64,000 nucleotides of DNA from positions 64,001 to 128,000 of the forward strand of contig JBHLMQ010000006.1 in assembly GCA_048938005.1 (NCBI GenBank). The letters are read 5' to 3'. This stretch comes from Promethearchaeota archaeon. Lineage in GTDB: Archaea; Asgardarchaeota; Lokiarchaeia; Sigyniarchaeales; SOKP01. The stretch's first letter is position 1, and every line of letters starts with the position of its first letter. The position numbers were made by a program, and so were the translations under genes. This document shows, in pieces, positions 44,743-63,736 of this stretch. The notes beneath the pieces are model-generated. The model saw only the letters and a list, made by a program, of their open reading frames with translations, was not told the origin of the DNA and searched no databases.

Positions 44743-45999
44743 TTGAGAAAAGTAGCAATTATTGGAATAGGAATTACACCTTTTAAAGCAAGGTATTTAG
44801 ATAAAACTTATTTTGAATTAGCTTATGATGCTACAAAATTAGCACTCGAAGACGCTAATAAAAACGGAGCAGAAATCATACACAAAGATCTCCAATCGAC
44901 GGTTTATGGAATTTATAATGAGTTATTTGAGCGACAATTTATGCCGGATATCTTTACAAATTCATATTTAGGTATGAATAATAAACCGGGAACCAGAGTT
45001 GCCACAGGAGGCGCTACAGGAGGATATACAGTTCGAATGGCTTATGCTGAAGTAGCTTCTGGATTGTCTGATTTATGTCTTTGTATCGGTCTTGAAAAAT
45101 GTAATGATTGTTATGATGAACAGACAGGAACTACCACCCCTGAAGTTCTTAATGCTATTGCTTACTCTTCAGATATGACTTATGAGTACCCAATGGGTAT
45201 GATGGCAGCAAGCTCTTATGTATCGATGGTAAATGCACATTATGAAGAATTTGGCAATCCTACCGAAGAACAAATGGCGTATGTGAGTGTGAAAAATCAT
45301 GGTAATGCAATGCTAAATCCTAAAGCCCAATCTCCAATGAAGCTGACTATTGAAGATGTGATATACTCAAGAATTATTTGTTATCCGTTTAAAATGTTGG
45401 ATTGTTGTCTCTATTCTGAAGCATCTGCAGCATTAATTCTAGCCAATGAAGAAAAAGTTAGAGAATTAGGAGTTGAGAATCCAATATGGATTACAGGAGT
45501 TGCAGCTGCGAACACAGATTGCTTCATTGGTAATCGAGAAAGTGTAGGGAGGCTATATTCTAATATTTACGCAGCAAAAGTAGCATATAAAATGGCAGGT
45601 CTTGATTATAATAAAATTAAGGAACAAATTGATGTTGCAGAATTACATGATGCCTTTAGTGGACAAGAAGTAATTTCTTATGAGGAACTAGGATTTGTAC
45701 CATTTGGAGAGGGTGGTCCATGGATTGAAAACTCTTTTGAAAAGCCCGGTGAAGGCCCTTGGTTGGAAGGAGAATTACCATGTTGTCCTTCAGGAGGATT
45801 AATTGGTTGTGGACATGCCGTTGGGGCTACAGGAATCATGTCAACTGGTGAAGCGGCACTTCAACTAAGAGGCAAAGCAGGCAAACATCAAGTATCCATT
45901 GAAAAGGGCAGAGCAATATCTCATTCTATAGGGGGTCCTGGAGCAGCGTATGCTGCTGTTATTGTAATGACAAATGAGGAGGGGTTGAAAAAGCCATGA
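44743..45999 (+). CDS. SCPx-type thiolase-fold protein lacking the canonical nucleophilic Cys
   Basis: KNHGNA..NPKAQ, ELHDAF, SGGLIGCGHAVGATG; the position normally holding CxSG reads TGGATGG. Confidence 0.85.
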   Translation: MRKVAIIGIGITPFKARYLDKTYFELAYDATKLALEDANKNGAEIIHKDLQSTVYGIYNELFERQFMPDIFTNSYLGMNNKPGTRVATGGATGGYTVRMAYAEVASGLSDLCLCIGLEKCNDCYDEQTGTTTPEVLNAIAYSSDMTYEYPMGMMAASSYVSMVNAHYEEFGNPTEEQMAYVSVKNHGNAMLNPKAQSPMKLTIEDVIYSRIICYPFKMLDCCLYSEASAALILANEEKVRELGVENPIWITGVAAANTDCFIGNRESVGRLYSNIYAAKVAYKMAGLDYNKIKEQIDVAELHDAFSGQEVISYEELGFVPFGEGGPWIENSFEKPGEGPWLEGELPCCPSGGLIGCGHAVGATGIMSTGEAALQLRGKAGKHQVSIEKGRAISHSIGGPGAAYAAVIVMTNEEGLKKP

Positions 46000-46490
46000 G
46001 TGAAAAATTTGAAGCACATGAAATAAGAGATAAAATTGTCATAAATTATAAATATACAATGGGTGGACATTCCAAATTTTTCATTGAGTTAATGAATAAT
46101 AAAAAAATTTTAGCAACAAAATGTAAGAAATGCGGTAAAGTATGGATGCCTCCAAGAATTAATTGTTCCGATTGCTTCGAAGACACTGAATGGATAGAAT
46201 TAAAACCTGAAGGTGAAATTTTGGTCAGCACGATTGCTTGGTTTACAACCTCCGCTTTTATTCAAAATGTACCCTATGCAATGGGTTTCATTAAGTTGAA
46301 AGGTGCCGACACTGGAATGCTCCAAGGTATCTTTTCGGAAAATTTAGTTCCTATTAAAATTAAAAAAGGGAAGAAAGTTAAGGCAGTATTCAATAAGAAT
46401 AGAGAAGGAATTATGACTGATTTCTTTTTCGTACCAGAAGAAGAATATGAGAGCTGGATTAATAAACCAGAGTTCGAGGGAGGTGGATAA
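45996..46490 (+). CDS. DUF35 Zn-ribbon/OB-fold acyl-CoA-binding protein
   Basis: KCKKCGKVWMPPRINCSDC, PYAMGFIKLKGA; overlaps the thiolase stop (ATGA). Confidence 0.9.
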   Translation: MSEKFEAHEIRDKIVINYKYTMGGHSKFFIELMNNKKILATKCKKCGKVWMPPRINCSDCFEDTEWIELKPEGEILVSTIAWFTTSAFIQNVPYAMGFIKLKGADTGMLQGIFSENLVPIKIKKGKKVKAVFNKNREGIMTDFFFVPEEEYESWINKPEFEGGG

Positions 46491-46493
46491 AAA

Positions 46494-46865
46494 ATGGATA
46501 CTGTAAAAGATAATTTAAAAAAAATACTTTTAGGAATGGAAGATAATTTAAAAGTAGAGGACATGTTTACCACTAATGTTGGTGGAAAAGACGTTGCTTG
46601 GGATAAGATATTCCAATTCAACTTGGATAATGAGGATCCATTCTTTTTAGTAATTAAAGACAAAAAAGTGAAAATTACAGATGGCACAGTCTTAGATCCC
46701 GATGTTATATTAACAGGTGATCCAAATTCGATAGTAAACATATGCAATGGGAAGGGAGACTTTACTCATGCTATTTCTAGAGAAGAGATAAAAGTAGCAG
46801 AAGGTAAAGTAATGGATGTCATCCGACTTACTAAAGCTATAACAATTGTTTTAAAAACTAAATAA
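46494..46865 (+). CDS. SCP2 sterol/lipid-binding domain protein
   Basis: IFQFNL..F.LVIKD..V..G..PDVIL..G....A.....IKV.G pattern; third gene of the thiolase operon. Confidence 0.8.
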   Translation: MDTVKDNLKKILLGMEDNLKVEDMFTTNVGGKDVAWDKIFQFNLDNEDPFFLVIKDKKVKITDGTVLDPDVILTGDPNSIVNICNGKGDFTHAISREEIKVAEGKVMDVIRLTKAITIVLKTK

Positions 46866-51948: not shown

Positions 51949-53022
51949 TTGATTATTGATAAAGTCTTGATTAAATTGAGAATTGTTGATTTACGTTCTG
52001 ATACCGTAACAAAACCATCTCCCGAAATGTGGGAAGCATTAAAATCGCTAGATAATTCTAAATTAGGTGATGATGTTGAAAGAGAAGACCCTACTGTAAA
52101 TGAGTTAGAAGAAAAATCTGCAAAGATTGTTGGAAAAGAATCTGCTCTCTTTGTAACTTCTGGTACTCAAGGCAATCTTATATCATTACTATCTCAAACT
52201 AATCCAGGAGATCAAATTATGGTTGAAAAACTTAGCCATATTATTGGACATGAGGTTGGAAGTGCTGCTAGGATTGGTGGATTGACGATTTATTCATATC
52301 CTTCTGATAAAGGTGTTCCTGATTTAGATGAACTTCAAGAAATGATCACAGATCGAGAAGATATACATGAACCCCCAACAAGCCTTTTATGTGCTGAGGA
52401 TACCCATAATTTTCATGGAGGTATAATAATTGAACCAGAAGAATTGAGGAAAATGATGCAATTTTCTGAAAAAAATGACTTAAGATTTCATCTTGATGGA
52501 GCAAGAATATTTAATGCTTCTGTAGCTCTTAATAAACCTGTTACGGATTTTACTCAATATGTTGATAGTGTGATGTTTTGTTTATCAAAAGGGCTCTCAT
52601 GTCCAGTTGGTTCTATTGTTGCCGGATCTCATGACTTTATTGAAAAAGCTAGGAGATACCGTAAAATGTTAGGTGGTGGAATGAGACAAGCAGGAGTCAT
52701 TGCATGTTTTGGTTTAGTTGCTCTTGACACTAATTGGATAAAACGGTTAGCAGAAGATCATAAAAACGCAAAGCTACTTGCTGAAGGAATAGAAGGATAT
52801 AAATTATCTATTCAAGTTCAAATTCCAGAAACAAATATCTTTTGGGTAAGTTTCCCAAAAAATGCTCCAATGGACAAAATAATGGCTGAATTTTATCAAA
52901 ATGGCATTAAAGTTTACAATTTCAATTATAATGTTCGTTTTGTTACACATTATGGAATAAATGAAGAAGATATCCGATATAGTATAGAAAAGATTGAACA
53001 AATTTTAAAGAAGTTTTTATAA
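51949..53022 (+). CDS. ltaE: Low-specificity L-threonine aldolase (start probably TTG 51976)
   Basis: DLRSDTVT, GDD..EDPT, SGTQGN, HLDGARIFNA, CLSKGL (PLP Lys), GGGMRQAG. Confidence 0.93.
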   Translation: MIIDKVLIKLRIVDLRSDTVTKPSPEMWEALKSLDNSKLGDDVEREDPTVNELEEKSAKIVGKESALFVTSGTQGNLISLLSQTNPGDQIMVEKLSHIIGHEVGSAARIGGLTIYSYPSDKGVPDLDELQEMITDREDIHEPPTSLLCAEDTHNFHGGIIIEPEELRKMMQFSEKNDLRFHLDGARIFNASVALNKPVTDFTQYVDSVMFCLSKGLSCPVGSIVAGSHDFIEKARRYRKMLGGGMRQAGVIACFGLVALDTNWIKRLAEDHKNAKLLAEGIEGYKLSIQVQIPETNIFWVSFPKNAPMDKIMAEFYQNGIKVYNFNYNVRFVTHYGINEEDIRYSIEKIEQILKKFL

Positions 53023-53072: not shown

Positions 53073-53603
53073 TTAATCTTTACGTAAATCCAAGTCTTTA
53101 GCATCATCTTCAATTGCATCATAGTATTCAATATCCATCATTCCACCCTTAATATCTTCTGCCCAATGAACTTTTATTGGCATCCCTATATAAGTTTCCT
53201 TAAATTCAACATTGGGATCTAATTGTGAGGGGTAAGATGTATCTGCTCCATCTAATTGCGCACAAACTATAGGTCTTTCTATAACTTCACCAGTCTCAGG
53301 ATCTTTTAAATAACTTACAGTATATGAAGCTACTCTTCCAGTTTCACGCAAATCTACCCATCTATCAGGTTTAACGAGACATTTACCACAGATTTGGCGA
53401 GGTGGAAAATATATTCGATTGCAACTACTACATTGTAAGCCTATTAACTTTTTTTGTTTTAGCTTATCCAGAAATGGTTTCATATGAGTGATATTAAATT
53501 TAAATTTATAATTGGACAAATACCAACTTGCTGGCATAGTTCTTGTTCTAATATATTCTTTTTTAACATAATCCATTGTTTTTCTTAATATTCTTTTAGA
53601 CAT
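53073..53603 (-). CDS. DUF35 Zn-ribbon/OB-fold protein
   Basis: QCSSCNRIYFPPRQICGKC, LDGADT, IGMPIKVHW. Confidence 0.9.
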   Translation of the reverse strand: MSKRILRKTMDYVKKEYIRTRTMPASWYLSNYKFKFNITHMKPFLDKLKQKKLIGLQCSSCNRIYFPPRQICGKCLVKPDRWVDLRETGRVASYTVSYLKDPETGEVIERPIVCAQLDGADTSYPSQLDPNVEFKETYIGMPIKVHWAEDIKGGMMDIEYYDAIEDDAKDLDLRKD

Positions 53604-53622
53604 TTTATATTACCTCCATTTT

Positions 53623-54870
53623 TTATTTAATTTTTCTAACTGGTTCATCAGCCATAACCATCATTGTAACCAAATTAACCCAACCACCCCATCCATGACC
53701 AATTGCGGTATGAACTGTCTTTGGAACTTGATTGCTTGCTTTCCCCATAATCTGTAAAGCTGCCTCTGCAGGCCTTTCCATTGCTGCTGCTCCTATAGCG
53801 TTTGTGGAATTAACACCTCCAGAACAACATATTGGTAATTCACCATTTAACGCAGTTACTCCAGTTTCATACATTTCTGAAGCTTTATTTTCTTCGAACA
53901 GACCCAATTTTTCAACCCACATAAGCTCTTGGTTAGGAAATGGTGAATACACCTCAGCATAATCAATTTCTTTTCTTGGAAAAGAAACACCCGCTTGTTT
54001 AAACGCTAATTCAGAAGTTTTTTGAGCACCTAATTGTTCAGAAAGGTCTAATTGTCCTGATCCACTTCCGTTAAAACCAAGAAGGGCTGTTTCAGTTGCT
54101 ATACTGCCTACTCCATTTACATAAACAGGAATTTCACATAAATCTTTAGCTTTTTCCTCAGTCGTAAATAACATTGCACAAGCTCCATCGGATGCTGGGC
54201 ATACCATTCCATACCTTAGGGGGTATGAAATATAGGGAGTATCTAAAACATCTTCAATTGTAAGATCTGGCATTTTAAGGTGAGCCCACCATGTTTTTGC
54301 GGCATTATGTCTATTCTGAACGACGACTCTAGCTAAGTCTTCTTCTGTAATTTTACTTTTTCGCATATAATTAGTAGCCTGATAAGAAGCAATTCCTATA
54401 GCCGCACCACCAGACAAAATAGTTGTCAATTGATCCAAAGGAATACCTAATGAATTCATTACAGAAATTTCACCATATGCTACACTTGCAAGTCCCGTAG
54501 TTGTATTACCTTGAGATTGTTGTTCAAAAGCTACAGCTAATACTGTATCTATTCCAGGTAAACCAGCAGCAACCGAATAATATCCTGCGATAGCTACAGA
54601 ACCACCTGTAGTACCTCCTGTTGTGACTCTCATTAATGGTTTATTGCGAGCACCCAACCAATCTGTCATCCATAGTTCAGGAATATTTGAACCTTCAAAT
54701 GCTGGCATATTCCCATTTACAGAAGCATCAATATCTTTAATATCAAAACTTGGAATTTTTTTTAAGCAATCTTCTATCGCTTCATTTATCAATTCTGGCA
54801 TGCTTACATCTGAACGTTTTGAAGCATGTTCACTGAACCCAGCACTTGCAACACATACTTGTCTTCCCAT
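53623..54870 (-). CDS. Thiolase-fold protein, Ltp3-like (putative aldolase subunit)
   Basis: KRSDVSMPELINEAI, FEG..PELW..LGA..KPLMRV.TGG..GGS, EVYSPF, STNAIGA; no nucleophilic Cys. Confidence 0.8.
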   Translation of the reverse strand: MGRQVCVASAGFSEHASKRSDVSMPELINEAIEDCLKKIPSFDIKDIDASVNGNMPAFEGSNIPELWMTDWLGARNKPLMRVTTGGTTGGSVAIAGYYSVAAGLPGIDTVLAVAFEQQSQGNTTTGLASVAYGEISVMNSLGIPLDQLTTILSGGAAIGIASYQATNYMRKSKITEEDLARVVVQNRHNAAKTWWAHLKMPDLTIEDVLDTPYISYPLRYGMVCPASDGACAMLFTTEEKAKDLCEIPVYVNGVGSIATETALLGFNGSGSGQLDLSEQLGAQKTSELAFKQAGVSFPRKEIDYAEVYSPFPNQELMWVEKLGLFEENKASEMYETGVTALNGELPICCSGGVNSTNAIGAAAMERPAEAALQIMGKASNQVPKTVHTAIGHGWGGWVNLVTMMVMADEPVRKIK

Positions 54871-54872
54871 TT

Positions 54873-56015
54873 CTAATTACCTCCCTCTAATACATATACT
54901 ATATTATTTTGGGCACACATACCTATTTGACCTGTAGCAATAGCTTTTTTAGCTCCCTTAACTTGATAACCATCTGCTTCTTGCTTAAGTTGTTTAGCAG
55001 CTTCAATAATTCTAATCAATCCTGTAGCACATGGTGGATTCCCCCCAAGAGCACCTCCAGAAGGATTGATTGGAAGTTCACCATCAATTTCAGAATTTAA
55101 TTTTACGCCATTACCCTTCTCTGCAAATCCTAAAGCTTCAGAAAAAATTAATTCTTCATGTGCATAGCTTTCAAATACCTCAGCAACATCAATTTCATCT
55201 TTCGGATTTTTGATTCCTGCTGCATTAAATGCCATTTTCCCTGCTAATTCCATAGATTTACTAATAGATAAATCTCGATCTCCAAGATAATAGGCTTCTT
55301 GACTATAGCCTACGCCAGTAATCCAAACTGGATTATCTATAATCTTTAATGCTTGCCTTTCTGGAGCTAATAATAACGCAGCTACTCCATCACAAGGTTC
55401 AGCTACCATTAGTTCTGTTACCGGATCTGCATAAATCTCAGAATCTAGGACTTCTTTTGCAGTTATATTTGCATTTTGCGCTTCTGCTAAAGCTAAGGGA
55501 TTCCTAGCTGCATTTTTTCTATTTTTGACAGCAACTTTCGCTATATCTTCAACACCCACTCCAAATCTTTCCAAATATGCCCTCATCTGAAAACCAGCAG
55601 AAGTGATGTCATTTACATATGCAAGAGGGCGTTCCCATGTGGGATCTGTCTCATATAAACGAGTAGAATGGTAAGGAAAACATGATGCCATGCTTCCACC
55701 CCAGACAACCGCCAATTTATGATTACCAGATAAAATCCTCATTAAACCATATAAAACAGCATGAGCACCATCCATTTCCACCTTAGACTCATCTACTAAG
55801 TATCCTCCCCCCACTTCTACAGTTAAAGAATTTGATATAGTCCGTCCATCATAATAATCATTTGTAGCTGAGATTACAGTAGATATATCTTTCTTTTTCA
55901 AACCTGCACTATCTAAAGCTCCTCGTACAGCCTCAAAAATCATTTCATATCTCCCATAATTAGCATCTGAATACAACTTCACTTGATTATATCCTACAAT
56001 TCCAACTCTCTCCAT
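54873..56015 (-). CDS. Thiolase-fold protein, Ltp4-like (putative aldolase subunit)
   Basis: DYYDGR.IS, ESKVEMDGAHAV, NPSGGAL.GNP..ATGLIRI; no nucleophilic Cys. Confidence 0.8.
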   Translation of the reverse strand: MERVGIVGYNQVKLYSDANYGRYEMIFEAVRGALDSAGLKKKDISTVISATNDYYDGRTISNSLTVEVGGGYLVDESKVEMDGAHAVLYGLMRILSGNHKLAVVWGGSMASCFPYHSTRLYETDPTWERPLAYVNDITSAGFQMRAYLERFGVGVEDIAKVAVKNRKNAARNPLALAEAQNANITAKEVLDSEIYADPVTELMVAEPCDGVAALLLAPERQALKIIDNPVWITGVGYSQEAYYLGDRDLSISKSMELAGKMAFNAAGIKNPKDEIDVAEVFESYAHEELIFSEALGFAEKGNGVKLNSEIDGELPINPSGGALGGNPPCATGLIRIIEAAKQLKQEADGYQVKGAKKAIATGQIGMCAQNNIVYVLEGGN

Positions 56016-56023
56016 TTATGGTA

Positions 56024-56491
56024 TCACCTCTCATTCCTCACGAAACCCTTTATATCTGAAGGATCTCCTTTTGGTATTTCCTCCCACTGGATTCTTAATT
56101 TCATTCCTGTTTTTACTTCTTCTTGTTCAAGATCTAATAGGCGGTAAATTATTGCCGTATTACTTCCATCAATTTGTACCATACCAATAATTTGAGGTTT
56201 TTTAACTTTTCTACAAGCTCTATCATTAACCTTATAATGGGTTATTGTATAATTCTTTAGGGTTCCAGTATCAGGCAAATCCACCCAATTCTCTTCAAAA
56301 TGTATTTTTTCATTACATTTTCCACAAATTTTTCTTGGTGGAACAAAAACATCTCCACATTTGGGGCATTTATTTCCAATTATTTTTTTATTTTTAAGAG
56401 TATCATAAAATTTGTCCAAGTAACGACCAACCCAAAAAGCAAATTCCGCTCTTATAAACCCCTTATTAGCAACAATTATTTTATCAGTCAT
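56024..56491 (-). CDS. DUF35 Zn-ribbon/OB-fold protein
   Basis: KCPKCGDVFVPPRKICGKC, IDGSNT, GMKLRIQW. Confidence 0.9.
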   Translation of the reverse strand: MTDKIIVANKGFIRAEFAFWVGRYLDKFYDTLKNKKIIGNKCPKCGDVFVPPRKICGKCNEKIHFEENWVDLPDTGTLKNYTITHYKVNDRACRKVKKPQIIGMVQIDGSNTAIIYRLLDLEQEEVKTGMKLRIQWEEIPKGDPSDIKGFVRNER

Positions 56492-56665
56492 AATGTTAAT
56501 TTTTTTTCAAATGTAATTTTAATAATGATTAATATTGTGATGAGTGGTATTTATAATTTTGAAAACATCCAATTCCAGATTCTTTTATTTTTATTGACTT
56601 ATTAAATAATTTTAAGAGAAATGGTCAATATTAACACTAAAAGAATTTAATTTATATTTTAAGAG

Positions 56666-57955
56666 TTGACTAAATTGGTTATAAAAAAAGGAAATGTACA
56701 ATGTATTAATGATGAGATACTTGAAAAATTATCTTTAAAGAATCGTTATAAATTTTTGAATTACAATTTGATGTCTTATTTGCCAAAAGAACAGTTTGAT
56801 TTTCTTAATAAAACTCAAAAGTTTTTATTAGATTTTGAAAAGAAGAAGAGTATCACTCATAATGAAGATTTTTATGATTGGATTCCCGAAATCGGTAAGG
56901 AAGGCTTGGTTACCCGAATAAGTAATTTCGATTTTCTTGATTTGAATTATGAACCTTATGGGCTAACAGCTGAATTTATGAGAATATTAGCTACTGATTT
57001 TTTTGATCCACAACTTACAATGGGAATGGGAGCTAACGTTTTAGCAATTAATCCCCTATTAGTACATCACGAGAATGTTGGGATTCGCTTAAAAGCATTG
57101 AAAGAATTAATATTGGGGCAAAAAGTTGGTTGTATATGTATAACGGAACCCGAACGTGGTTCTGATGCAGTTCATATGCTTACTACTTGTGATGAACAAG
57201 AAGATGGAAGTTTTATTGTAAACGGAGAAAAAATTTATCAAACAAATGGAGCAAAAGCAGATTGGGCAGTAATGTATGCTGTCGCTGAAAAGAATAATGG
57301 CAATACGATGGCACAATTTTTGGTTGATACATCTTGGAATGGCTGGAAAGTAGAGAGAATAAATATCCCTTGGACTCCACGAATTTATCTTGGTAAAGAG
57401 ACTTTTACAAATTTAAGAATCCCTTCTGAATATGTTTTGGGCAAACCAGGTAAAGGTAGAGAACATCTTTTTGAAGGATTGAATTTGGAACGATTAGGAA
57501 TTGTCATTCTTAATGCAGCAGAATCTTGGAATGCTATAACTCATGCTGTCATTTATGCAAACATGAGAAAACAATTTGATCAGGAAATTTTAAAATTCCA
57601 GGGAGTTGGATTTCCTTTAGCAGATTTATGGGCAGAGACTATGAATCTTACTCTATCCACTTTAAATGTATGCCAAATGGTAGATAAAAAAGTAGAACAA
57701 TTTGGAGCCCTTCCTAAGGAATTTAGCTTGGCTTTAATGGCTACAGCATCTCAATTAAAATCAATAAGTGCTAAATTAAGTCAAAAGGCAGCATACGAAT
57801 GTGCAAATCTCATGGGTGGTGCAGGTGTATGTGATAACACATTAATGCAAGATTTACTAGGTGTCACTAGAATACAGGAAATTGGAGGGGGAACAAGACA
57901 AATTCAGCAATATATCATGAGTTTAACTCTACGACAATTATTTAAATTACTCTGA
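56666..57955 (+). CDS. Acyl-CoA dehydrogenase (isovaleryl/long-chain type catalytic Glu placement)
   Basis: CITEPERGSD, NGEK..TNG, GLNLERL, RKQF..I..FQ, MGGAG, IGGGT. Confidence 0.9.
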   Translation: MTKLVIKKGNVQCINDEILEKLSLKNRYKFLNYNLMSYLPKEQFDFLNKTQKFLLDFEKKKSITHNEDFYDWIPEIGKEGLVTRISNFDFLDLNYEPYGLTAEFMRILATDFFDPQLTMGMGANVLAINPLLVHHENVGIRLKALKELILGQKVGCICITEPERGSDAVHMLTTCDEQEDGSFIVNGEKIYQTNGAKADWAVMYAVAEKNNGNTMAQFLVDTSWNGWKVERINIPWTPRIYLGKETFTNLRIPSEYVLGKPGKGREHLFEGLNLERLGIVILNAAESWNAITHAVIYANMRKQFDQEILKFQGVGFPLADLWAETMNLTLSTLNVCQMVDKKVEQFGALPKEFSLALMATASQLKSISAKLSQKAAYECANLMGGAGVCDNTLMQDLLGVTRIQEIGGGTRQIQQYIMSLTLRQLFKLL

Positions 57956-58199
57956 TATAATTTCCTTTATTTTTTTTTCCTATTTTCTAAAATCATTTTA
58001 TAAATTTAATCTAACTTTCTAAGATTGATATAACATTATAATAATTGATAATAATGGGAATCTTTTAATTTAGTTTTTTGAGAAGATATAATATAGAAGT
58101 CTTAAAAAAAAAAGTCAATTTTTATAAACTTTCATGAACATAGTAAATAATTGGTTACCATATTTTAATACAAAAAATTTCTAAAAAGTGATAATTTAG

Positions 58200-59933
58200 A
58201 TGAGTCAACAAACTAGTAATGAAAAATTTTGGTTAAAATCCTATGATAAACATGTTCCTCCAACATTAACTTATCCAACAGAGGATCTTGGGACATTATT
58301 AACTCAAAATATGAAAAACTATGCTGATAAAGTAGGTTTTTATTTTATGGATCGCACTTTTCTTTTCACAGAAATTTTGGAATATTCCCAAAAATTTGCT
58401 ACATTTTTACAAAAAAATGGTATGAAAAAAGGTGATGTATTAGCCATTGCTTTACCAAATACTCCTCAATATTTATTTTCTGTTTATGGAGCTTATATAG
58501 CAGGAGGTACTGTTACAGGATGTTCACTCCTATTAAGTCCAGATGAAATTGCATATCAAATGAAAGATTCAGGTGCTAAATTTCTAGTTACTATGGATAT
58601 TGTTCATGAAATGCTATTTTCAAAGATCTATGATCGCTTACCAGATTTGAAAGTGATAGTTCCAACAAATATTGCAGAATTTATGGGTATTTCAAAGATT
58701 AAATTGTTCATGGGAAAATTATTTAAAAAGGATCTAAGGGAAAAACTACGTAAGGGTAAAATTATCCCTTGGCCAGGAAAAACTGTAATCCCATTTCTAA
58801 AGGCATTAGATACTGAAATTGATTTGGAAAAAGTTGATATCGATCCTAAAAAAGATTTGGCTTTGATAATATATACGGGTGGCACTACAGGAGTTCCTAA
58901 AGGAGTAGAAGTTGTTCACTCGAATTTGATAGCAAATCTTCATCAATTTGATGTCTGGCTCAATAGAGAGAAAGGTAAAGAAATACTTCTTGCAGCATTT
59001 CCCTTCTTTCACATTGCTGGATTCATTACTGGTCTTTTCTTGAACTTTTTAGGCGGAGCACAAATATTAATAGCAGATCCAAGAAATAATGATCATATAA
59101 TAAAGGAAATCATTGATAAGAAACCTACAAGTTTTGGAAATGTGCCAACTCTGTTTTTAATGATTCAGAAGAATCCACTATCGAAAAAAATCCCACCAGA
59201 AGTATTAGATAACATTTCATTATATGTAAGTGGTGCTGCACCCTTTCCAGCAGAAGCAATAAGAGAATTTGAGAGACAATTCCATACAGAAAATAAGTTT
59301 TTAGAGGTTTACGGATTGACTGAAACTGCGATAGTAACCGGTAATCCTATGTTTGGTGAGAAAAAGCTTGGAACTGTTGGATTACCATGGCCAGATACAG
59401 AGATTAAGTTAATAGATTTAGATACTGGAGAAGAAATAAGAGAGATTGGGCAAACAGGTGAAATTTTAATAAAAGGTCCTCAAGTTGTTAAGCAATATCA
59501 TAATAAACCTGAAGCTACTGCTGCTGCATTTGATAATGAGGGTTATTTCCACTCAGGTGATGTTGGTGTTTTCGATGATGATGGCTATTTAAAGATTGTT
59601 GATCGTACGAAAGACATGCTTAGTGTAAGCGGTTTTAAGGTGTATAGTGTCCATGTTGAAGAAGTAATGACTAAACATCCTGATATTCAAATCCTCGCAA
59701 TAATAGGAGTTCCTAATCCTGATAGACCTGGAGCTGAAATAGTAAAGGCAATTATTCAATTAAAAGAAGGTGTTGAAGCAATTGATAAAGTTAAAGATAG
59801 TATTAAAAAATATGCTGAAGAAAACCTTTCAAAATACGAAGTTCCTAAGATCTGGGATTTTCGGGAAGAACTTCCTTTAACTATGGTTGGTAAAGTAAAG
59901 AAAAAAGCACTTCGCGAAGAATTAAAAAAATAA
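58200..59933 (+). CDS. Long-chain fatty-acid--CoA ligase
   Basis: YTGGTTGVPKG, EVYGLTE, HSGDVG, DRTKDM, LPLTMVGKV. Confidence 0.93.
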   Translation: MSQQTSNEKFWLKSYDKHVPPTLTYPTEDLGTLLTQNMKNYADKVGFYFMDRTFLFTEILEYSQKFATFLQKNGMKKGDVLAIALPNTPQYLFSVYGAYIAGGTVTGCSLLLSPDEIAYQMKDSGAKFLVTMDIVHEMLFSKIYDRLPDLKVIVPTNIAEFMGISKIKLFMGKLFKKDLREKLRKGKIIPWPGKTVIPFLKALDTEIDLEKVDIDPKKDLALIIYTGGTTGVPKGVEVVHSNLIANLHQFDVWLNREKGKEILLAAFPFFHIAGFITGLFLNFLGGAQILIADPRNNDHIIKEIIDKKPTSFGNVPTLFLMIQKNPLSKKIPPEVLDNISLYVSGAAPFPAEAIREFERQFHTENKFLEVYGLTETAIVTGNPMFGEKKLGTVGLPWPDTEIKLIDLDTGEEIREIGQTGEILIKGPQVVKQYHNKPEATAAAFDNEGYFHSGDVGVFDDDGYLKIVDRTKDMLSVSGFKVYSVHVEEVMTKHPDIQILAIIGVPNPDRPGAEIVKAIIQLKEGVEAIDKVKDSIKKYAEENLSKYEVPKIWDFREELPLTMVGKVKKKALREELKK

Positions 59934-60051
59934 GGAACTAAATAATTAAACTTTTTTTTATATCTTTTCTTTAAATGGGCTATAAGCTTAAGTATAAATA
60001 TTCAAAAATTGAAAAATTATTCATTATTAAAAATAAATTTTTATTATAATT

Positions 60052-60867
60052 ATGCGAATAGAAGATTTTGAAGATATTATTTATGAAAAGGAAGATAATG
60101 GTATATGTACAGTAACTATTTCAAGACCTGAAGCTAGGAATGCCGTAACGCATATTACTTTCTTAGAAATATATACAGTTTTAGAAGATATAGAGAATGA
60201 TAAAAATGCTAAAGTGCTTATAATTACAGGAGATCCTAAGGGAAATGCTTTTACATCTGGAGGTTATTTTAGAACAGAAATGCTTGAAAAGATGAAGAAA
60301 TATCCTGAAATAGACCTTATGGATATTGCTCAAAAAAAAGTGTGTATGAAATTTTGGAATTTCACGAAACCTGTCATTGCTGCAATTAATGGAATGGCAA
60401 TAGGGGGTGGTATTACAATGCCCTTAGCTGGTGCTGATCTTATCTACATGGCAGAGGATGCATGGTTTGGATTTTATTTCAGTAAAAGAGCAATTATCCC
60501 TGAATTTGCAAGTACCTTTCTTTTGCCCTTTTATATTGGGTTTCAAAAAGCTAAAGAAATCATCTATTTTGGACAAAAATTAACCGCTCAAGAATCCTAT
60601 GAGCTTGGAATTGTGAATAAAGTTTTACCAAAGGAAGAATTGATACCATATGCTAAAGAACAAGCGTTAAAACTAATCCCCCCTAAAGGCCCAATTCTAG
60701 CAATTAAACTAATGAAAAAAACAATGCATTCATATTTTAGGGAGATTTTAGATAAAACTTTAGATTTGGAAAACAGAGCGTTAAGAAAAACATTTTCATC
60801 TTATGATTTTAACGAATCAATGAAGGCTCTTAAGGAGAAAAGAGATCCTATTTTTAAAGGTTGTTAA
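60052..60867 (+). CDS. Enoyl-CoA hydratase/isomerase family protein
   Basis: RPEARNA, AFTSGG, KPVIAAINGMAIGGG, IIPE, EKRDPIFKG. Confidence 0.9.
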   Translation: MRIEDFEDIIYEKEDNGICTVTISRPEARNAVTHITFLEIYTVLEDIENDKNAKVLIITGDPKGNAFTSGGYFRTEMLEKMKKYPEIDLMDIAQKKVCMKFWNFTKPVIAAINGMAIGGGITMPLAGADLIYMAEDAWFGFYFSKRAIIPEFASTFLLPFYIGFQKAKEIIYFGQKLTAQESYELGIVNKVLPKEELIPYAKEQALKLIPPKGPILAIKLMKKTMHSYFREILDKTLDLENRALRKTFSSYDFNESMKALKEKRDPIFKGC

Positions 60868-60979: not shown

Positions 60980-62533
60980 ATGGAAAATATAGATTTTGAT
61001 GAAAGGCAGGTAATTTCAACTTATCCTGTTATTGTTATTGGTGCCGGTTTAGGTGGACTAGGCGCTGCATGTCAACTTGCATCTCTCGATAAAAAAGTTC
61101 TATTACTTGAAAAGCATAATGTACCTGGAGGATTTGCAACTTCATTTGTGAGGGGACGATTTGAGTTTGAAGGTGCATTACATGAAATAAGTGATATTGG
61201 TACTGAAGGAAATAGAGGTAGTCTATATCGATTTTTCGAGAGAATCGGTGTTGTTCCTGACAAAATTAAGTTTAAACAAATTCCAGAATTTTATCGTAGT
61301 GTATTTTTAGATGGATATGATGTGACTATGCCTATTAATTTAGAAGAATATACTAATAAATTGATTGAGCTCTTTCCTGGAGAAAAAAAAGGAATAGAAG
61401 ATTTCATGGAAATGTGTCAAGCTGTATTCGAAGGAATTAAATTTGTAGCTCGCGCTAGAGGAAGGTTTTCTCCACCGGAAATCTTAAAAGAGCATCCATG
61501 GTTAGCCCGTATATCTGGTCTTACGTTATCTGAAGTATATCAGAAATTTTTCAAAGATGAGAGGCTAATTGCTGTAGTATCTCAATTATGGGGTTATTTA
61601 GGCCTCCCACCTTCCAGAGTAAATGCCTATGCTTATATTGCCATGCTAATTATTTATTTAATCCATGGTGCTGCTTTTCCTATGGGAAGATCTCATGCTC
61701 TAACTAGCGCAATGGTAAAATCTTTTGAAGAATTAGGTGGTGAAATCAGATATAACGCACTAGTAAATCGTATTCTCGTAGAAAATGGAAGGGTATGTGG
61801 AATAGAGCTGTTAAATGGAGATATATATCGCTGTGAAGCTGTAATTTCAAATGCGAATCCAATTTGTACAACAATGAAAATGTTACCAGAAGATATCGTT
61901 CCGGTAAGTTATAAAAAAAAAATCTATGCTGCTGATATTGGACCATCAGGATTTTCAGTATATATAGGCCTTAATGCTTCATATAAGGAATTAGGATTTA
62001 CTGCTCATGAAACCTTTATTAACGAAACATACAATTTAGAAGAAGGTTATAAATCATTCACTAAATTAGAACCTCCTAATTACATGGTTGCGGCCTGTTA
62101 TAATCATGTTTATGAAGATATATCTCCTCCTGGAACAACACAACTTGTTCTTACTACTTTACAAATGGGCAAATTATGGCAGAGTGTCGCCCCTGATCAA
62201 TATTATAAAATTAAGGACTTCATTGCCGACAAAATGGTAAATTTGGTTGAGAAGACGATTTGTCCTAATATTCGGGATTATATTGAAGTCGCTGAAGTAG
62301 CAACCCCACTTACTTATTATCGTTATTCAAAGAATTTAGAAGGAGCGATCTATGGGTATACTCAGGATATTTTGAATGGCCCAACACTGAGACTGAAAAG
62401 CAGAGGTTCAATTCCAGGTTTGTATCAAGCTGGAGCTTGGACAAATATTGGAGGGGGATATTCATCATCCATTCTTGGAGGTAGGATTGCTGCTGGAATG
62501 TATTTAAGAGATAAGAAAGAGGGGAGGTGGTAA
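60980..62533 (+). CDS. FAD-dependent oxidoreductase, phytoene desaturase/retinol saturase (CrtI-like) family
   Basis: VIGAGLGGL, LEKHNVPGG..SF.RG.FEFE, TPLTY.RY..N..GAIYG, GLYQAG.W..GGG. Confidence 0.88.
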   Translation: MENIDFDERQVISTYPVIVIGAGLGGLGAACQLASLDKKVLLLEKHNVPGGFATSFVRGRFEFEGALHEISDIGTEGNRGSLYRFFERIGVVPDKIKFKQIPEFYRSVFLDGYDVTMPINLEEYTNKLIELFPGEKKGIEDFMEMCQAVFEGIKFVARARGRFSPPEILKEHPWLARISGLTLSEVYQKFFKDERLIAVVSQLWGYLGLPPSRVNAYAYIAMLIIYLIHGAAFPMGRSHALTSAMVKSFEELGGEIRYNALVNRILVENGRVCGIELLNGDIYRCEAVISNANPICTTMKMLPEDIVPVSYKKKIYAADIGPSGFSVYIGLNASYKELGFTAHETFINETYNLEEGYKSFTKLEPPNYMVAACYNHVYEDISPPGTTQLVLTTLQMGKLWQSVAPDQYYKIKDFIADKMVNLVEKTICPNIRDYIEVAEVATPLTYYRYSKNLEGAIYGYTQDILNGPTLRLKSRGSIPGLYQAGAWTNIGGGYSSSILGGRIAAGMYLRDKKEGRW

Positions 62534-62536
62534 TAA

Positions 62537-63736
62537 ATGGAGAAAGACATAATGGCAGATATAAAAAAATATCAAAAAGCTGAAAAGTTAAAAAAGTGGC
62601 GAGATGAAGTCCAACCAATACCATGGTATTTTGATGGTTTAGAAAATCTCTGTGACAGAATTCACCCAGAAAAGCAATCAGTACAAATTTCTGATATAAA
62701 ACAACTTTCTTGGGATACAAAATTATATAGACTCATTTCGGCTAATCCAAACAAACTACTTGCTCCTTTCAGAGCTGGATATTATATTGGTATTAATGTA
62801 GAAATAAATGATGTTCGAACCTCACGTCCTTATTCACTTGTATCTTCACCAAATCAATTAGCATATTATGACGTAGCTATTAAAAGAAAAGAGGGAGGTT
62901 TTGTAAGCCCCTATATTCTTGATAATTTAAAGGAAGGCGATGTTTTAGAAATAACAGAACCTATGGGAAATTTCTATTATAATAGAATATTCCATGGAAA
63001 AAATTTAGTGTTTATCGCGGGGGGTTCTGGCATAGCTCCTTTTATTTCAATATTAAGGGATATTTCTGAAAGAGCTTTACCTTTAAATGTATGGTTGATT
63101 TTTGGCTGTTTAACAGAGAAAGATATTTTATTCAGGGAAGAGCTTGAAGATATACAAGTTAGGCGCCCAAATATTCGGATTAAATATATCCTATCAGAAC
63201 CTGGACCAGATTGGACTGGAACTTGTGGATTTATTACTAAAGAAGAGATCCTAAAAGAAATTGGATCAAAACACAATAAATTTTTCTACGTGGTAGGAAA
63301 TCGCCCGATGTATTTCTTTATACAGGAACAATTAGGAGCAATGGGAGTTCCTATTCATCGTGTTATTTATGAATCCTATGGTGTCCCAGATAATGTTACA
63401 GAAGTAATAGGCTGGCCTGATGGCATAAATGCTTTAAAAAATGTCCAAATAACAATCGAATTTATGAAACAAGGAAAGAAATTTAAAGAAGTGTTTAAGG
63501 CACCTTGTGGTGAACCAATCTTAAATAGCATTGAACGAGAAAAAGTACTAGAACAAGAAATTAATAATGGCTGTCGTTCAGGCGCCTGTGCTTTGTGTAG
63601 AACTAAACTTATATCGGGTAAAGTATTTGTGCTCCCAGAAGTGACGATAAGAGAAATTGATCAAAAATTTGGGTTTATCCACCCTTGCGTGTCATATCCA
63701 CTTACTGATATTCATCTAGATTTATCCTTAACCTAA
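62537..63736 (+). CDS. FAD/NAD(P)H-binding oxidoreductase with C-terminal 2Fe-2S ferredoxin (PaaE/KshB-like reductase)
   Basis: RPYSLVS, GFVS, IAGGSGIAP, ESYG, CRSGACALC..CV. Confidence 0.9.
   Translation: MEKDIMADIKKYQKAEKLKKWRDEVQPIPWYFDGLENLCDRIHPEKQSVQISDIKQLSWDTKLYRLISANPNKLLAPFRAGYYIGINVEINDVRTSRPYSLVSSPNQLAYYDVAIKRKEGGFVSPYILDNLKEGDVLEITEPMGNFYYNRIFHGKNLVFIAGGSGIAPFISILRDISERALPLNVWLIFGCLTEKDILFREELEDIQVRRPNIRIKYILSEPGPDWTGTCGFITKEEILKEIGSKHNKFFYVVGNRPMYFFIQEQLGAMGVPIHRVIYESYGVPDNVTEVIGWPDGINALKNVQITIEFMKQGKKFKEVFKAPCGEPILNSIEREKVLEQEINNGCRSGACALCRTKLISGKVFVLPEVTIREIDQKFGFIHPCVSYPLTDIHLDLSLT

What the first reader, a model, noticed from the sequence alone, without database searches (positions are those of the whole stretch)
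53073..56491. DUF35-Ltp4-like-Ltp3-like-DUF35 operon: an actinobacterial sterol side-chain aldolase-type module in an Asgard archaeon
Seen: four tightly packed minus-strand genes, two thiolase-fold proteins flanked by two DUF35 proteins. Neither thiolase has the nucleophilic Cys (TTGGTTGG; VEMDGAH) and one has Tyr in EVYSPF. Known: Mycobacterium/Rhodococcus Ltp3 and Ltp4 are non-canonical thiolase-fold proteins needed to degrade C24-branched sterol side chains and sit next to a DUF35 gene; the related Ltp2-DUF35 complex is a retro-aldolase. From recall, KR.DVSM..L..EAI, FEG...PEL, KPL.RV and ES.VEMD match Ltp3 and Ltp4. Inference: this archaeon encodes a heteromeric aldolase that removes branches from steroid, hopanoid or isoprenoid acyl-CoAs. 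I know of no characterised archaeal example.
Basis: partly seen in the sequence, partly recalled or inferred. Interest (0 to 1): 0.85.

Follow-up and report, generated by a model that had tools for sequence, protein, structure and literature searches.

The report
Cysteine-less thiolase-like four-gene module
An Asgard (Loki-type) archaeon carries a conserved four-gene unit encoding two thiolase-shaped proteins that lack the thiolase catalytic residues plus two small zinc-ribbon partner proteins; it is related to bacterial genes linked to plant-sterol side-chain breakdown and probably cuts carbon-carbon bonds in CoA-bound acids by a different chemistry, on an unknown substrate.

Summary
Four tightly packed minus-strand genes, DUF35a, beta (380 aa), alpha (415 aa) and DUF35b, lie at 53073-56491. 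Both thiolase-fold proteins lack the nucleophilic Cys, the HDCF His/Cys and the GHP His. Alpha has Tyr308 at the position of the catalytic tyrosine of the Ltp2 and Sal aldolases.

The family assignment holds at class level:
- Alpha's best NCBIfam model is PRK08313. Beta matches PRK07937 among its top four.
- A Streptomyces ligase/EchA19-like/double-DUF35/beta/alpha cluster passes both model cut-offs. The Asgard proteins do not.
- In two trees the Asgard proteins fall in the alpha and beta clades with the Streptomyces pair, apart from Cys-bearing thiolases.
- Gene order is invariant in 20 of 20 modules examined. A complex model supports an alpha-beta dimer (0.95 against 0.00 for controls).

The steroid, hopanoid or isoprenoid substrate is unsupported:
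- Flanking genes vary between genomes.
- Orthologues occur in 51 of 68 genomes of the window's own family and 3 of 19 of one other family.
- The nearest non-Asgard relatives are uncultivated sediment Actinomycetota.
- Ltp3/Ltp4 biochemistry is itself only genetic.

My best reading is a heteromeric, Cys-independent C-C lyase (retro-aldolase type) acting on acyl-CoAs, with a catalytic alpha, a degenerate beta and an unknown substrate. It is a new variant of a known but poorly characterised kind, of moderate interest.

The parts
56024..56491 (-). DUF35a: 155-aa zinc-ribbon (CPKC...CGKC) plus OB-fold protein, first gene of the module, next to beta
   Evidence: ORF. Pfam OB_ChsH2_C 38.9 bits and zf-ChsH2 27.4 bits. 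Conserved in first position in 20 of 20 modules.
54873..56015 (-). beta: 380-aa SCP2-type thiolase-fold protein without Cys, His or Tyr at the catalytic positions (VEMDGAHA, EVFESY, GGNPP); probably the non-catalytic partner
   Evidence: The active-site positions vary across 47 beta-class proteins. Beta clade 97*. Modelled dimer with alpha 0.95 against 0.00.
53623..54870 (-). alpha: 415-aa SCP2-type thiolase-fold protein, no nucleophilic Cys (TTGGTTGG). Tyr308 (EVYSPF) sits at the Ltp2/Sal catalytic-Tyr position and Asn357 at the thiolase GHP His position. Probably the catalytic subunit.
   Evidence: Conservation: E306 55/55, Y308 45/55, N357 54/55. Alignment to a YDHF protein. AF2 model pLDDT 87.8.
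53073..53603 (-). DUF35b: 176-aa zinc-ribbon (CSSC...CGKC) plus OB-fold protein, last gene, next to alpha
   Evidence: ORF. Pfam zf-ChsH2 30.1 bits; OB_ChsH2_C 20.2 bits, below the cut-off. Conserved in last position.
56492..56665 (.). 174-bp intergenic region between the module and the divergent acyl-CoA dehydrogenase gene; presumed promoter region, not analysed
   Evidence: Coordinates; inference only.
56666..60867 (+). Context only, seen in the window's own genus: acyl-CoA dehydrogenase-like (429 aa), acyl-CoA ligase (577 aa), enoyl-CoA hydratase (271 aa)
   Evidence: Pfam and NCBIfam. Found beside the module only in L032 and L036, both of the window's genus g1, out of 16 orthologous loci.

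Best explanation
The four genes encode one complex: a heterodimer of two paralogous SCP2-type thiolase-fold proteins, alpha and beta, with a DUF35 zinc-ribbon/OB protein bound to each. This follows the DUF35 - dimer - DUF35 layout solved for Ltp2-ChsH2 and Sal-Shy, and the gene order DUF35a-beta-alpha-DUF35b mirrors it. The complex cannot perform thiolysis, because neither subunit has the nucleophilic Cys, the HDCF His/Cys or the GHP His. Alpha keeps a conserved Glu306-x-Tyr308 and Asn357. Tyr308 sits where the catalytic base Tyr of the steroid aldolases Ltp2 (YDHF) and Sal (YDCY) sits. I therefore infer that alpha catalyses retro-aldol cleavage of a 3-hydroxyacyl-CoA into an aldehyde or ketone plus a short acyl-CoA, or the reverse aldol addition. 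I infer that beta is a degenerate structural partner. The module belongs to the same alpha/beta class as the actinobacterial PRK08313/PRK07937 (Ltp3/Ltp4-type) pair but is a separate lineage. Shown here: gene structure, loss of the catalytic residues, class membership and conserved order. Inferred: complex architecture, aldolase chemistry and which subunit is active. Unknown: the substrate. My sub-confidences are about 0.85 for a non-thiolytic alpha/beta + DUF35 complex of this class, about 0.5 for aldolase chemistry, and 0.1 or less for a steroid or hopanoid substrate.
For: - Genes and domains.
- Catalytic residues are missing in both proteins, while two Cys-bearing paralogues (C6, C12) exist elsewhere in the genome.
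- Alpha class, n=55: E306 55/55, Y308 45/55, N357 54/55. Beta class, n=47: the equivalent of Y308 is S16/F9/C6/H4/D3/Y3/T3/E2 (42 of the 47 counted in these eight residues), and Asn at the GHP position is present in only 27/47.
- Y308 aligns with the Tyr of a YDHF motif in a Streptomyces PRK07855-family protein (665 bits, cut-off 469) and with the His of HDCF.
- PMC12329534 (sections read) states that this Tyr is the catalytic base in TcLtp2 and CtSal, and that Sal has Gly at the nucleophile position.
- NCBIfam: the best model for alpha is PRK08313, 360 bits. The genome's best PRK07937 matches are beta and beta2.
- The Streptomyces cluster ligase / EchA19-like / double DUF35 (313-319 aa) / beta-like (567 > 419) / alpha-like (712 > 514) shows the same parts list.
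- Trees: in FastTree (129 rows) an 'Asn-class' clade of 102 rows has 99* support. In IQ-TREE quick (73 rows) Cys thiolases stand apart (98*), beta is one clade (97*), win_ALPHA shares a 96* clade with the Streptomyces alpha and win_BETA a clade (90) with the Streptomyces beta.
- Order DUF35a-beta-alpha-DUF35b holds in 17 of 17 orthologous modules and 3 of 3 distant ones, and in the bacterial sister group.
- Complex model alpha+beta: score 0.95, best of 3 controls 0.00. That mark was reached by 58 of 80 solved complexes and 2 of 110 mismatched pairs. The three runs agree in at least 95% of contacts, and the partner's pLDDT is 93. The pass may reflect likeness to solved thiolase homodimers.
Against: - No enzyme of the alpha/beta class has been assayed in anything I read; Ltp3/Ltp4 evidence is genetic only.
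- Alpha lacks the second catalytic residue of both characterised aldolases (Cys304 of Sal is Pro310 here; the Tyr344 loop of Ltp2 holds Asn357), so the acid catalyst is unidentified.
- Y308 is replaced by Q, F or H in 10 of 55 class members.
- Monophyly of alpha is weak (SH-aLRT 68). Only quick or FastTree trees were obtained.
- The fold search does not place alpha nearer the aldolases. The top matches are the thiolases 7yvy, 4yzo and 6et9; Ltp2 (6ok1) ranks 21 and Sal (9myr) ranks 44.
- Both proteins score below the NCBIfam cut-offs.
- I could not compare them with Rv3522/Rv3523 or the Rhodococcus proteins themselves.
- The DUF35 contacts were not modelled.
Confidence: 0.55

Rival explanations
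1. The complex acts on CoA esters but with other chemistry than aldol cleavage, for example decarboxylation of a malonyl- or beta-carboxyacyl-CoA (as weakly shown for TbSLP), a non-covalent Claisen-type transfer coupled to the neighbouring BKACE enzymes, or an isomerase or hydrolase reaction.
For: TbSLP, a Cys-less relative with a YDCF motif, slowly decarboxylates malonyl-CoA (PMC12329534, discussion read). BKACE genes lie next to the module in 6 of 16 orthologous loci and in a bacterial relative, L171. The general acid expected of an aldolase is not identifiable.
Against: The only assayed Cys-less relatives with this Tyr and a defined physiological reaction (Ltp2, Sal) are aldolases. CtSal showed no malonyl-CoA decarboxylation. 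BKACE adjacency is not universal.
Confidence: 0.2
2. The complex is a non-catalytic acyl-CoA or lipid binding or scaffolding complex: a pseudoenzyme pair that holds or hands over substrates for neighbouring enzymes.
For: All canonical thiolase catalytic residues are lost in both subunits. DUF35 proteins act as assembly mediators in archaeal complexes (bioRxiv 10.1101/2024.07.05.601840, section 8 read). SCP2 genes lie nearby.
Against: Alpha keeps invariant or near-invariant polar residues at the active-site positions (E306, Y308, N357, R366, Q373), whereas beta does not. This asymmetry is what a pair with one live active site would show.
Confidence: 0.15
3. One reading: an aldolase that removes branches from steroid, hopanoid or isoprenoid acyl-CoAs. 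This is a special case of the best explanation.
For: The module belongs to the same class as the Ltp3/Ltp4-type pair. In the window's genus a CrtI-family FAD oxidoreductase, a ligase, an acyl-CoA dehydrogenase and a hydratase lie beside it. A tertiary-alcohol retro-aldol step would solve the beta-methyl block of isoprenoid acids (my inference).
Against: These neighbours are found in 2 of 16 orthologous loci beyond the window. Five of the 16 loci have unrelated flanks. No steroid-ring catabolic genes were looked for or seen. The closest relatives come from uncultivated Actinomycetota.
Confidence: 0.1
4. Ordinary ketothiolases with DUF35 partners, serving fatty-acid synthesis, beta-oxidation or the mevalonate pathway, as 'KT/DUF35 pairs' in Asgard genomes have been counted.
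For: Sources annotate homologues as 'acetyl-CoA C-acetyltransferase'. The preprint 10.1101/2024.07.05.601840 (section 9 read) reports on average 3.8 KT/DUF35 pairs in the 67% of 62 screened Asgard genomes that carry more than one pair.
Against: There is no nucleophilic Cys, no HDCF and no GHP His in either protein. Cys-bearing SCP2-type and type-I thiolases exist elsewhere in the genome. An HMG-CoA synthase homologue lies on another contig.
Confidence: 0.03

Closest known systems
[quoted passage not shown]
   Same: Two adjacent paralogous Cys-less SCP2-type thiolase-fold genes (alpha with E-x-Y and S/T-N-P, beta with x-E/D-x-D-G) plus two DUF35 domains. Same alpha and beta clades. The motifs KR.DVS, FEG..PEL, KP.LRV and ES.VEMDGA are shared.
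   Different: Alpha is about 37-40% identical to the Streptomyces alpha and beta about 32% to the Streptomyces beta. Scores are below the NCBIfam cut-offs. The two DUF35 domains are separate proteins, both with Cys4 ribbons and flanking the pair, instead of one fused protein upstream whose N-terminal half lacks the Cys ligands. Alpha carries an extra stretch of about 25 residues at 118-160, modelled with low confidence. There is no EchA19/FadD19-type context in most genomes. The host is an uncultivated archaeon found in sediment and mangrove metagenomes. I used Streptomyces proteins as stand-ins; the link to the names Ltp3/Ltp4 is by NCBIfam description, EchA19-like neighbour, papers and my recall.
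Ltp2-ChsH2(DUF35) and Sal-Shy(DUF35) steroid side-chain aldolases (PDB 6ok1, 9myr)
   Same: SCP2-type thiolase fold without the nucleophilic Cys. Tyr at the first position of the HDCF-equivalent motif. DUF35 partner. The Ltp2-type is sister to alpha+beta in my tree (SH-aLRT 92).
   Different: Those are homodimers whose DUF35 is a domain of the hydratase. Their second catalytic residue (Tyr344 or Cys304) is not present here. PRK07855 scores only 98 to 107 bits on alpha and beta (cut-off 469). Structural rank is 21 and 44, behind true thiolases.
Archaeal thiolase/DUF35 complexes (thiolase-HMGCS-DUF35 of Methanothermococcus, 6esq/6et9; Saci_1121/1120 fatty-acid synthase core)
   Same: Archaeal SCP2-type thiolase fold with an adjacent DUF35 gene. 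Among the closest solved structures by sequence profile and by fold.
   Different: Those thiolases are homodimeric, Cys-dependent Claisen enzymes. Here there are two different subunits, no Cys and two DUF35 proteins.
ST0096 of Sulfolobus tokodaii (PDB 4yzo), a 'thiolase-like protein'
   Same: Best PDB sequence hit for alpha (E 6.6e-35). It also lacks the nucleophilic Cys (TSGSGGS).
   Different: It keeps the His of HDxx and of GHP, so it belongs to the other Cys-less class seen in this genome (TGGATGG/HDAF/GH, for example window 44743-45999), not to alpha/beta.

Membership tests
alpha/beta Cys-less thiolase-fold class (Ltp3/Ltp4 type; NCBIfam PRK08313 + PRK07937) | SCP2-type thiolase fold in both proteins | tested here: met
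   Pfam Thiolase_C_1 at 85 and 95 bits. AF2 model of alpha, TM 0.75-0.85 to SCP2-type thiolases.
alpha/beta Cys-less thiolase-fold class (Ltp3/Ltp4 type; NCBIfam PRK08313 + PRK07937) | No nucleophilic Cys; Asn in place of the GHP His; alpha with E-x-Y; beta with D-G in the nucleophile loop | tested here: met
   Motif table and class conservation.
alpha/beta Cys-less thiolase-fold class (Ltp3/Ltp4 type; NCBIfam PRK08313 + PRK07937) | Adjacent alpha and beta genes with two DUF35 domains | tested here: met
   Window; 20 of 20 Asgard modules; Streptomyces beta-alpha preceded by a 313-319 aa double DUF35.
alpha/beta Cys-less thiolase-fold class (Ltp3/Ltp4 type; NCBIfam PRK08313 + PRK07937) | Placement inside the alpha and beta clades, away from Cys thiolases | tested here: met
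   Caveats: quick or FastTree methods only, rows chosen from hits to alpha, alpha monophyly only 68.
alpha/beta Cys-less thiolase-fold class (Ltp3/Ltp4 type; NCBIfam PRK08313 + PRK07937) | Score above the curated NCBIfam cut-offs (orthologue-level membership) | tested here: not met
   Alpha 360 against 514; beta 196 against 419. The Streptomyces proteins pass: 712 and 567.
alpha/beta Cys-less thiolase-fold class (Ltp3/Ltp4 type; NCBIfam PRK08313 + PRK07937) | Direct likeness to Rv3523/Rv3522 or the Rhodococcus Ltp3/Ltp4 sequences | not tested
   Those sequences could not be fetched by name with the tools. Streptomyces family members were used instead.
alpha/beta Cys-less thiolase-fold class (Ltp3/Ltp4 type; NCBIfam PRK08313 + PRK07937) | [quoted passage not shown] | not testable with these tools
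   This is a genetic phenotype in Rhodococcus (cited in PMC10832528 and PMC6273163; passages read).
Ltp2 / Sal steroid aldolases | Catalytic Tyr at the first position of the YDHF / YDCY motif | tested here: met
   Alpha Y308 aligns with the Y of YDHF in a Streptomyces PRK07855 protein. The motif's role is from PMC12329534.
Ltp2 / Sal steroid aldolases | Second catalytic residue (Tyr344 in Ltp2 or Cys304 in Sal) | tested here: not met
   Pro310 at the Cys304 position; Asn357 in the Tyr344/Gln352 loop.
Ltp2 / Sal steroid aldolases | Family-level sequence score (PRK07855) | tested here: not met
   98 bits (alpha) and 107 bits (beta) against a cut-off of 469.
Thiolytic SCP2-type thiolases, including archaeal KT/DUF35 | Nucleophilic Cys, HDCF His and Cys, GHP His | tested here: not met
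   All four positions are replaced in both proteins.

The most novel reading that the evidence does not exclude
Loki-type Asgard archaea, together with uncultivated sediment Actinomycetota, run a thiolase-independent way of shortening or lengthening acyl chains. An alpha/beta aldolase interconverts 3-hydroxyacyl-CoA with an aldehyde plus acetyl-CoA. It works with FabK-like enoyl reductases, hydratases, acyl-CoA ligases and, in this genome, aldehyde:ferredoxin oxidoreductase. On this reading, much of what has been counted as 'ketothiolase/DUF35 pairs' for archaeal fatty-acid synthesis is a different chemistry.
Probability: 0.12. Interest if true: 0.85.

Novelty: new variant of a known kind. Interest (0 to 1): 0.5.

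Why it matters
Asgard archaea are the closest known relatives of eukaryotes, and their acyl-lipid metabolism bears on the 'lipid divide'.

- A recent preprint counts several ketothiolase/DUF35 pairs per Asgard genome and takes them as a sign of fatty-acid synthesis. In this genome only 2 of 9 SCP2-type thiolase-fold proteins keep the nucleophilic Cys. At least two four-gene modules are of the Cys-less alpha/beta type, so such counts overstate thiolase capacity.
- The alpha/beta class is widespread: 82 clusters at 50% identity below E 1e-30. As far as I could find, none has been biochemically characterised.
- A compact, self-contained archaeal four-gene version, with separate DUF35 proteins and no mycobacterial host, is a convenient system for establishing what the Ltp3/Ltp4-type enzymes actually do.

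Tried and rejected
- **Housekeeping role.** The 81-93% identity of the top 120 homologue clusters suggested a core function. I rejected this. Orthologues (at least 68% identity) were found in 51 of 68 other genomes of the window's family f1, 3 of 19 of family f14, and 0 of the other 213 genomes of the phylum sample. Six of 22 congeners have only weak paralogue hits, two of them in genomes 99% complete.
- **Mevalonate thiolase/HMGCS/DUF35 trio.** Rejected. Both long proteins are SCP2-thiolase type, and the only HMG-CoA synthase N-domain match lies on contig C60.
- **Fold comparison to separate aldolase from thiolase.** Uninformative: all SCP2-type structures match with TM 0.75-0.85.
- **Function from conserved neighbours.** No universal partner emerged. 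The most recurrent are FabK-like NMO proteins, BKACE enzymes and acyl-CoA ligases. In five loci the neighbours are unrelated genes such as SepF, alpha-amylase, MFS transporters, nitroreductase and PAP2.
- **One-to-one orthology of DUF35a and DUF35b with the two halves of the Streptomyces double DUF35.** Not resolved.
- **Expression.** No RNA holder was listed.
- **Better trees.** 'Careful' and mixture-model trees gave no answer from the script machine, so only FastTree and IQ-TREE quick trees are reported. No AU test was run.
- **Literature.** Five full-text searches found no paper on an alpha/beta Ltp3/Ltp4 structure or assay, and none on archaeal Cys-less thiolase pairs. Wilbrink et al. 2012 was not readable here and is known to me only through citing passages and recall.

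Full report
**What is there.** One search finds four minus-strand ORFs at exactly the reported coordinates. They are DUF35a (56024-56491, 155 aa), beta (54873-56015, 380 aa), alpha (53623-54870, 415 aa) and DUF35b (53073-53603, 176 aa). The gaps between them are 8, 2 and 19 nt. Pfam assigns Thiolase_C_1 and Thiolase_N to both long proteins, and the ChsH2-type zinc ribbon plus OB fold (former DUF35) to both short ones. The OB match of DUF35b is below the Pfam cut-off. Both DUF35 proteins keep a CxxC...CxxC ribbon. The window is contig C31:64001-128000 of a 3.7-Mb, 101-contig genome. The best homologues carry labels of Promethearchaeota (Loki-type Asgard). Of the 19 rows with an NCBI organism label, 14 are Promethearchaeota or Promethearchaeia, 2 Thorarchaeota, 1 Hodarchaeota and 2 'metagenome'. 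One search gives the taxonomy.

**Catalytic residues.** The genome encodes nine SCP2-type thiolase-fold proteins and two type-I thiolases.
- Two of the nine (on C6 and C12) have the canonical GACASSG / EVHDCF / KGHPVG pattern.
- Aligned to these and to 107 full-length representatives and in a focused alignment, alpha reads TTGGTTGG / EVYSPF / STNAIG and beta reads VEMDGAHA / EVFESY / GGNPP.
- Neither has the nucleophilic Cys, the HDCF His and Cys, or the GHP His.
- Seven of the nine SCP2-type proteins lack the Cys. They fall into two kinds: a 'GHH' kind that keeps both His residues (for example window 44743-45999) and the alpha/beta kind.

**A class of paired proteins.** A full HMMER scan of 1.84 billion representatives gave 3291 hits at E up to 1e-3, of which 82 were below 1e-30. 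One Asgard cluster sits at 82% identity, and the next hit is at 45%.
- The motif table sorts the hits into an alpha pattern (x-T-G-G-T-T-G / E-x-Y-x-P-F / S/T-N-P) and a beta pattern (x-E/D-x-D-G-x-x-A / E-V/I-x-D/E / x-N-P).
- In 55 alpha-class proteins, E306 is present in 55, Y308 in 45 (otherwise Q4, F4, H2) and N357 in 54.
- In 47 beta-class proteins, the residue matching Y308 is S16, F9, C6, H4, D3, Y3, T3 or E2, and the Asn is kept in only 27.
- One subunit therefore has a conserved polar site and the other does not.

**Link to Ltp3/Ltp4.**
- NCBIfam gives PRK08313 as alpha's best model: 360 bits against a cut-off of 514. For beta it gives PRK06065 (216), PRK06066 (201), PRK06064 (196) and PRK07937 'lipid-transfer protein' (196 against a cut-off of 419).
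- Across the whole genome, the best PRK08313 matches are alpha2 and alpha, and the best PRK07937 matches are beta and beta2. None passes its cut-off.
- The GC-rich representative P0126 proved to be from Streptomyces: 80 of the 80 loci kept, out of at least 600 matches.
- There the genes are a divergent acyl-CoA ligase (PRK07798), a hydratase scoring 376 bits on the EchA19 model (cut-off 400), a 313-319 aa double DUF35, a 349-356 aa beta-like protein (PRK07937, 567 bits, passes) and a 391 aa alpha-like protein (PRK08313, 712 bits, passes).
- Passages of PMC10832528 and PMC6273163 name FadD19, EchA19 and the 'aldol-lyases Ltp3 and Ltp4' as the functions specific to C24-branched sterol side chains, citing Wilbrink et al. 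2012, a knock-out study.
- That PRK08313 and PRK07937 are the families of Rv3523 and Rv3522 is my recall. I could not fetch those sequences.

**Trees.**
- FastTree, 129 rows. Rows dropped beforehand: representatives under 365 or over 450 aa, and six with evident frameshifts. Cys-bearing thiolases are basal, then the GHH kind. A clade of 102 rows with Asn at the GHP position has 99* support and splits into alpha-type and beta-type groups.
- IQ-TREE quick, LG+G4, 73 rows that I chose to represent each clade.
  - Cys thiolases stand apart (98*).
  - Two Streptomyces PRK07855 (Ltp2-type) proteins, one with a YDHF motif, are sister (92) to alpha+beta (90).
  - Beta is one clade (97*). Alpha is one side of a branch with only 68.
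  - win_ALPHA lies in a 20-row clade (96*) with the Streptomyces alpha. win_BETA lies in a 13-row clade (90) with the Streptomyces beta.
- The alpha and beta subtrees repeat the same branching order: main Asgard clade, then L047/L048, then a bacterial representative. This fits co-inheritance of the pair.
- More careful runs did not return.

**Why aldolase chemistry.** I read sections 9 and 11 of PMC12329534.
- In TcLtp2 the catalytic base is Tyr294 of a YDHF motif and the acid is Tyr344.
- In CtSal they are Tyr302 and Cys304 of YDCY.
- These motifs correspond to HDCF of SCP2 thiolases. Sal has Gly at the nucleophile position.
- Alpha's Y308 aligns with that Tyr, but position +2 is Pro, and the loop that holds Tyr344 in Ltp2 and Gln352 in Sal holds Asn357.
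- Alpha thus shares the base but not the acid of either known aldolase. The chemistry is inferred, not shown.

**Complex.**
- Both solved aldolases are DUF35 - dimer - DUF35 assemblies (abstract and sections of PMC12329534).
- Here there are two different subunits and two different DUF35 proteins, in the gene order DUF35a-beta-alpha-DUF35b. I infer that each DUF35 caps the subunit encoded next to it.
- The alpha+beta model scored 0.95 in each of three runs, against 0.00 for the best of three controls. That mark was reached by 58 of 80 solved complexes and 2 of 110 mismatched pairs. The runs agree in at least 95% of contacts. The partner's pLDDT is 93. My own alignments were used, so the calibration counts hold only roughly.
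- The interface (alpha 74-106, beta 71-98, among others) is the usual thiolase dimer interface, so the pass may come from likeness to solved homodimers.
- The four-chain complex exceeded the size limit and was not modelled.

**Distribution and context.**
- In 300 other genomes of the phylum sample, orthologues at E below 1e-180 and at least 68% identity occur in 51 of 68 genomes of the window's family f1, 3 of 19 of f14 and 0 of the other 213. Weaker paralogues are common: 247 of 301 genomes have some match at E up to 1e-20.
- In 20 loci of about 20 kb, all 17 orthologous modules and 3 distant ones (43-47% identity) keep the same four-gene order. The flanks do not.
  - The acyl-CoA dehydrogenase, ligase, hydratase, CrtI-like and FNR-like set of the window recurs in 2 loci of the same genus.
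  - A BKACE gene is near in 6 loci.
  - A FabK-like NMO gene is near in 8.
  - A ligase is adjacent in 3.
  - Five loci have unrelated neighbours.
- A second module (beta2, alpha2 and two DUF35) lies 15 kb downstream, just outside the window. Around it are enoyl-CoA hydratase, aldehyde:ferredoxin oxidoreductase, Fe-alcohol dehydrogenase, SCP2 and BKACE genes. One genome has three modules within 12 kb (L045).
- The nearest non-Asgard alpha (P0122, 45% identity) belongs to a family labelled Geothermincolia, 'Solincola' or Actinomycetota bacterium.
- Where my crude ORF calls in GC-rich DNA allow, metagenome contigs of that family show the same gene order. An NMO-like gene lies directly downstream in L161 and L178, and a BKACE gene directly upstream in L171.
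- DNA runs that hold the stretch are labelled sediment, mangrove and soil metagenomes. No RNA run was listed.

**Structure.** The AF2 model of alpha (pLDDT 87.8) is a standard thiolase fold. It has low confidence at 61-70, 121-160 and 261-270. The 121-160 stretch includes an insert absent from the Streptomyces alpha. Foldseek ranks Pyrococcus thiolase 7yvy, S. tokodaii ST0096 (4yzo) and the Methanothermococcus thiolase first. Ltp2 is 21st and Sal 44th. A profile search of the PDB finds no solved member of the alpha/beta class.

**Verdict.**
- The Asgard module is a distinct lineage below orthologue thresholds, with split DUF35 proteins and no sterol context.
- The reaction of the whole class is unproven.
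- The most likely function is a Cys-independent C-C lyase on acyl-CoAs with one catalytic subunit. The substrate is open.
- The finding is of moderate interest. It mainly corrects the reading of 'thiolase/DUF35 pairs' in Asgard genomes, and it offers a tractable route to the biochemistry of Ltp3/Ltp4-type enzymes.

Noticed in passing
window 44743-46865 (+): A three-gene unit. It holds a 418-aa Cys-less thiolase-fold protein of a different kind (TGGATGG, but HDAF and GH kept; best NCBIfam PRK06064, 296 bits, below cut-off), a DUF35 protein (164 aa) and an SCP2 protein (123 aa). The thiolase-fold protein is 86-93% conserved and lies near the alpha/beta module in L032, L041 and L046.
   Followed up: partly
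L001 6425-9693 (= G000:C31:132425-135693), just beyond the window end: A second paralogous module in the order beta2-alpha2-DUF35-DUF35. Neighbours are an enoyl-CoA hydratase, aldehyde:ferredoxin oxidoreductase, Fe-alcohol dehydrogenase, SCP2, two BKACE genes, and a 473-aa Cys-less thiolase-like protein with a degenerate DUF35.
   Followed up: partly
whole genome G000: Only 2 of 9 SCP2-type thiolase-fold proteins keep the nucleophilic Cys. Published counts of 'ketothiolase/DUF35 pairs' in Asgard genomes may therefore include many non-thiolases.
   Followed up: partly
window 51949-53022 (+): A PLP-dependent aldolase of the GntG / low-specificity threonine aldolase family (361 bits, cut-off 230), convergent with the module. 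The same arrangement occurs in four other loci of the window's genus (L032, L033, L036, L037).
   Followed up: no
window 60980-63736 (+): A CrtI/phytoene-desaturase-family FAD oxidoreductase (517 aa), followed by an FNR-like reductase with a 2Fe-2S domain (399 aa), downstream of the ligase and hydratase. The pair recurs beside the module in L032, L036 and L037.
   Followed up: no
window 42663-43685 (-) and L042-L044, L048, L050, L161, L178: FabK-like NMO-family proteins (156-198 bits on TIGR03151, cut-off 453) are the neighbour of the module that recurs most widely, including in the bacterial sister group.
   Followed up: partly
L041 (G183:C95) and L045 (G144:C6): Some genomes carry two tandem copies of the module separated by a ligase (L041), or three alpha/beta modules of different subtypes within about 12 kb (L045).
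   Followed up: no
alpha2-type matches (for example G144:C6:75368-76522): Many alpha2-type matches are flagged '1 TGA' or '1 TAA' inside the match. This is probably the alignment of the longer query running through the stop codon at the C-terminus. I did not check it.
   Followed up: no
window 38199-40707 (+): An N6-adenine DNA methylase of the Eco57I/MmeI type (693 aa), followed by a GNAT acetyltransferase. Unrelated to the finding.
   Followed up: no
G000:C12:5405-6844 and C60:52700-53194: A 479-aa ORF lies directly upstream of the Cys-bearing thiolase on C12 and was not annotated. The only HMG-CoA synthase N-domain match is in a 558-aa frame on C60, with no SCP2-type thiolase found on that contig.
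   Followed up: no
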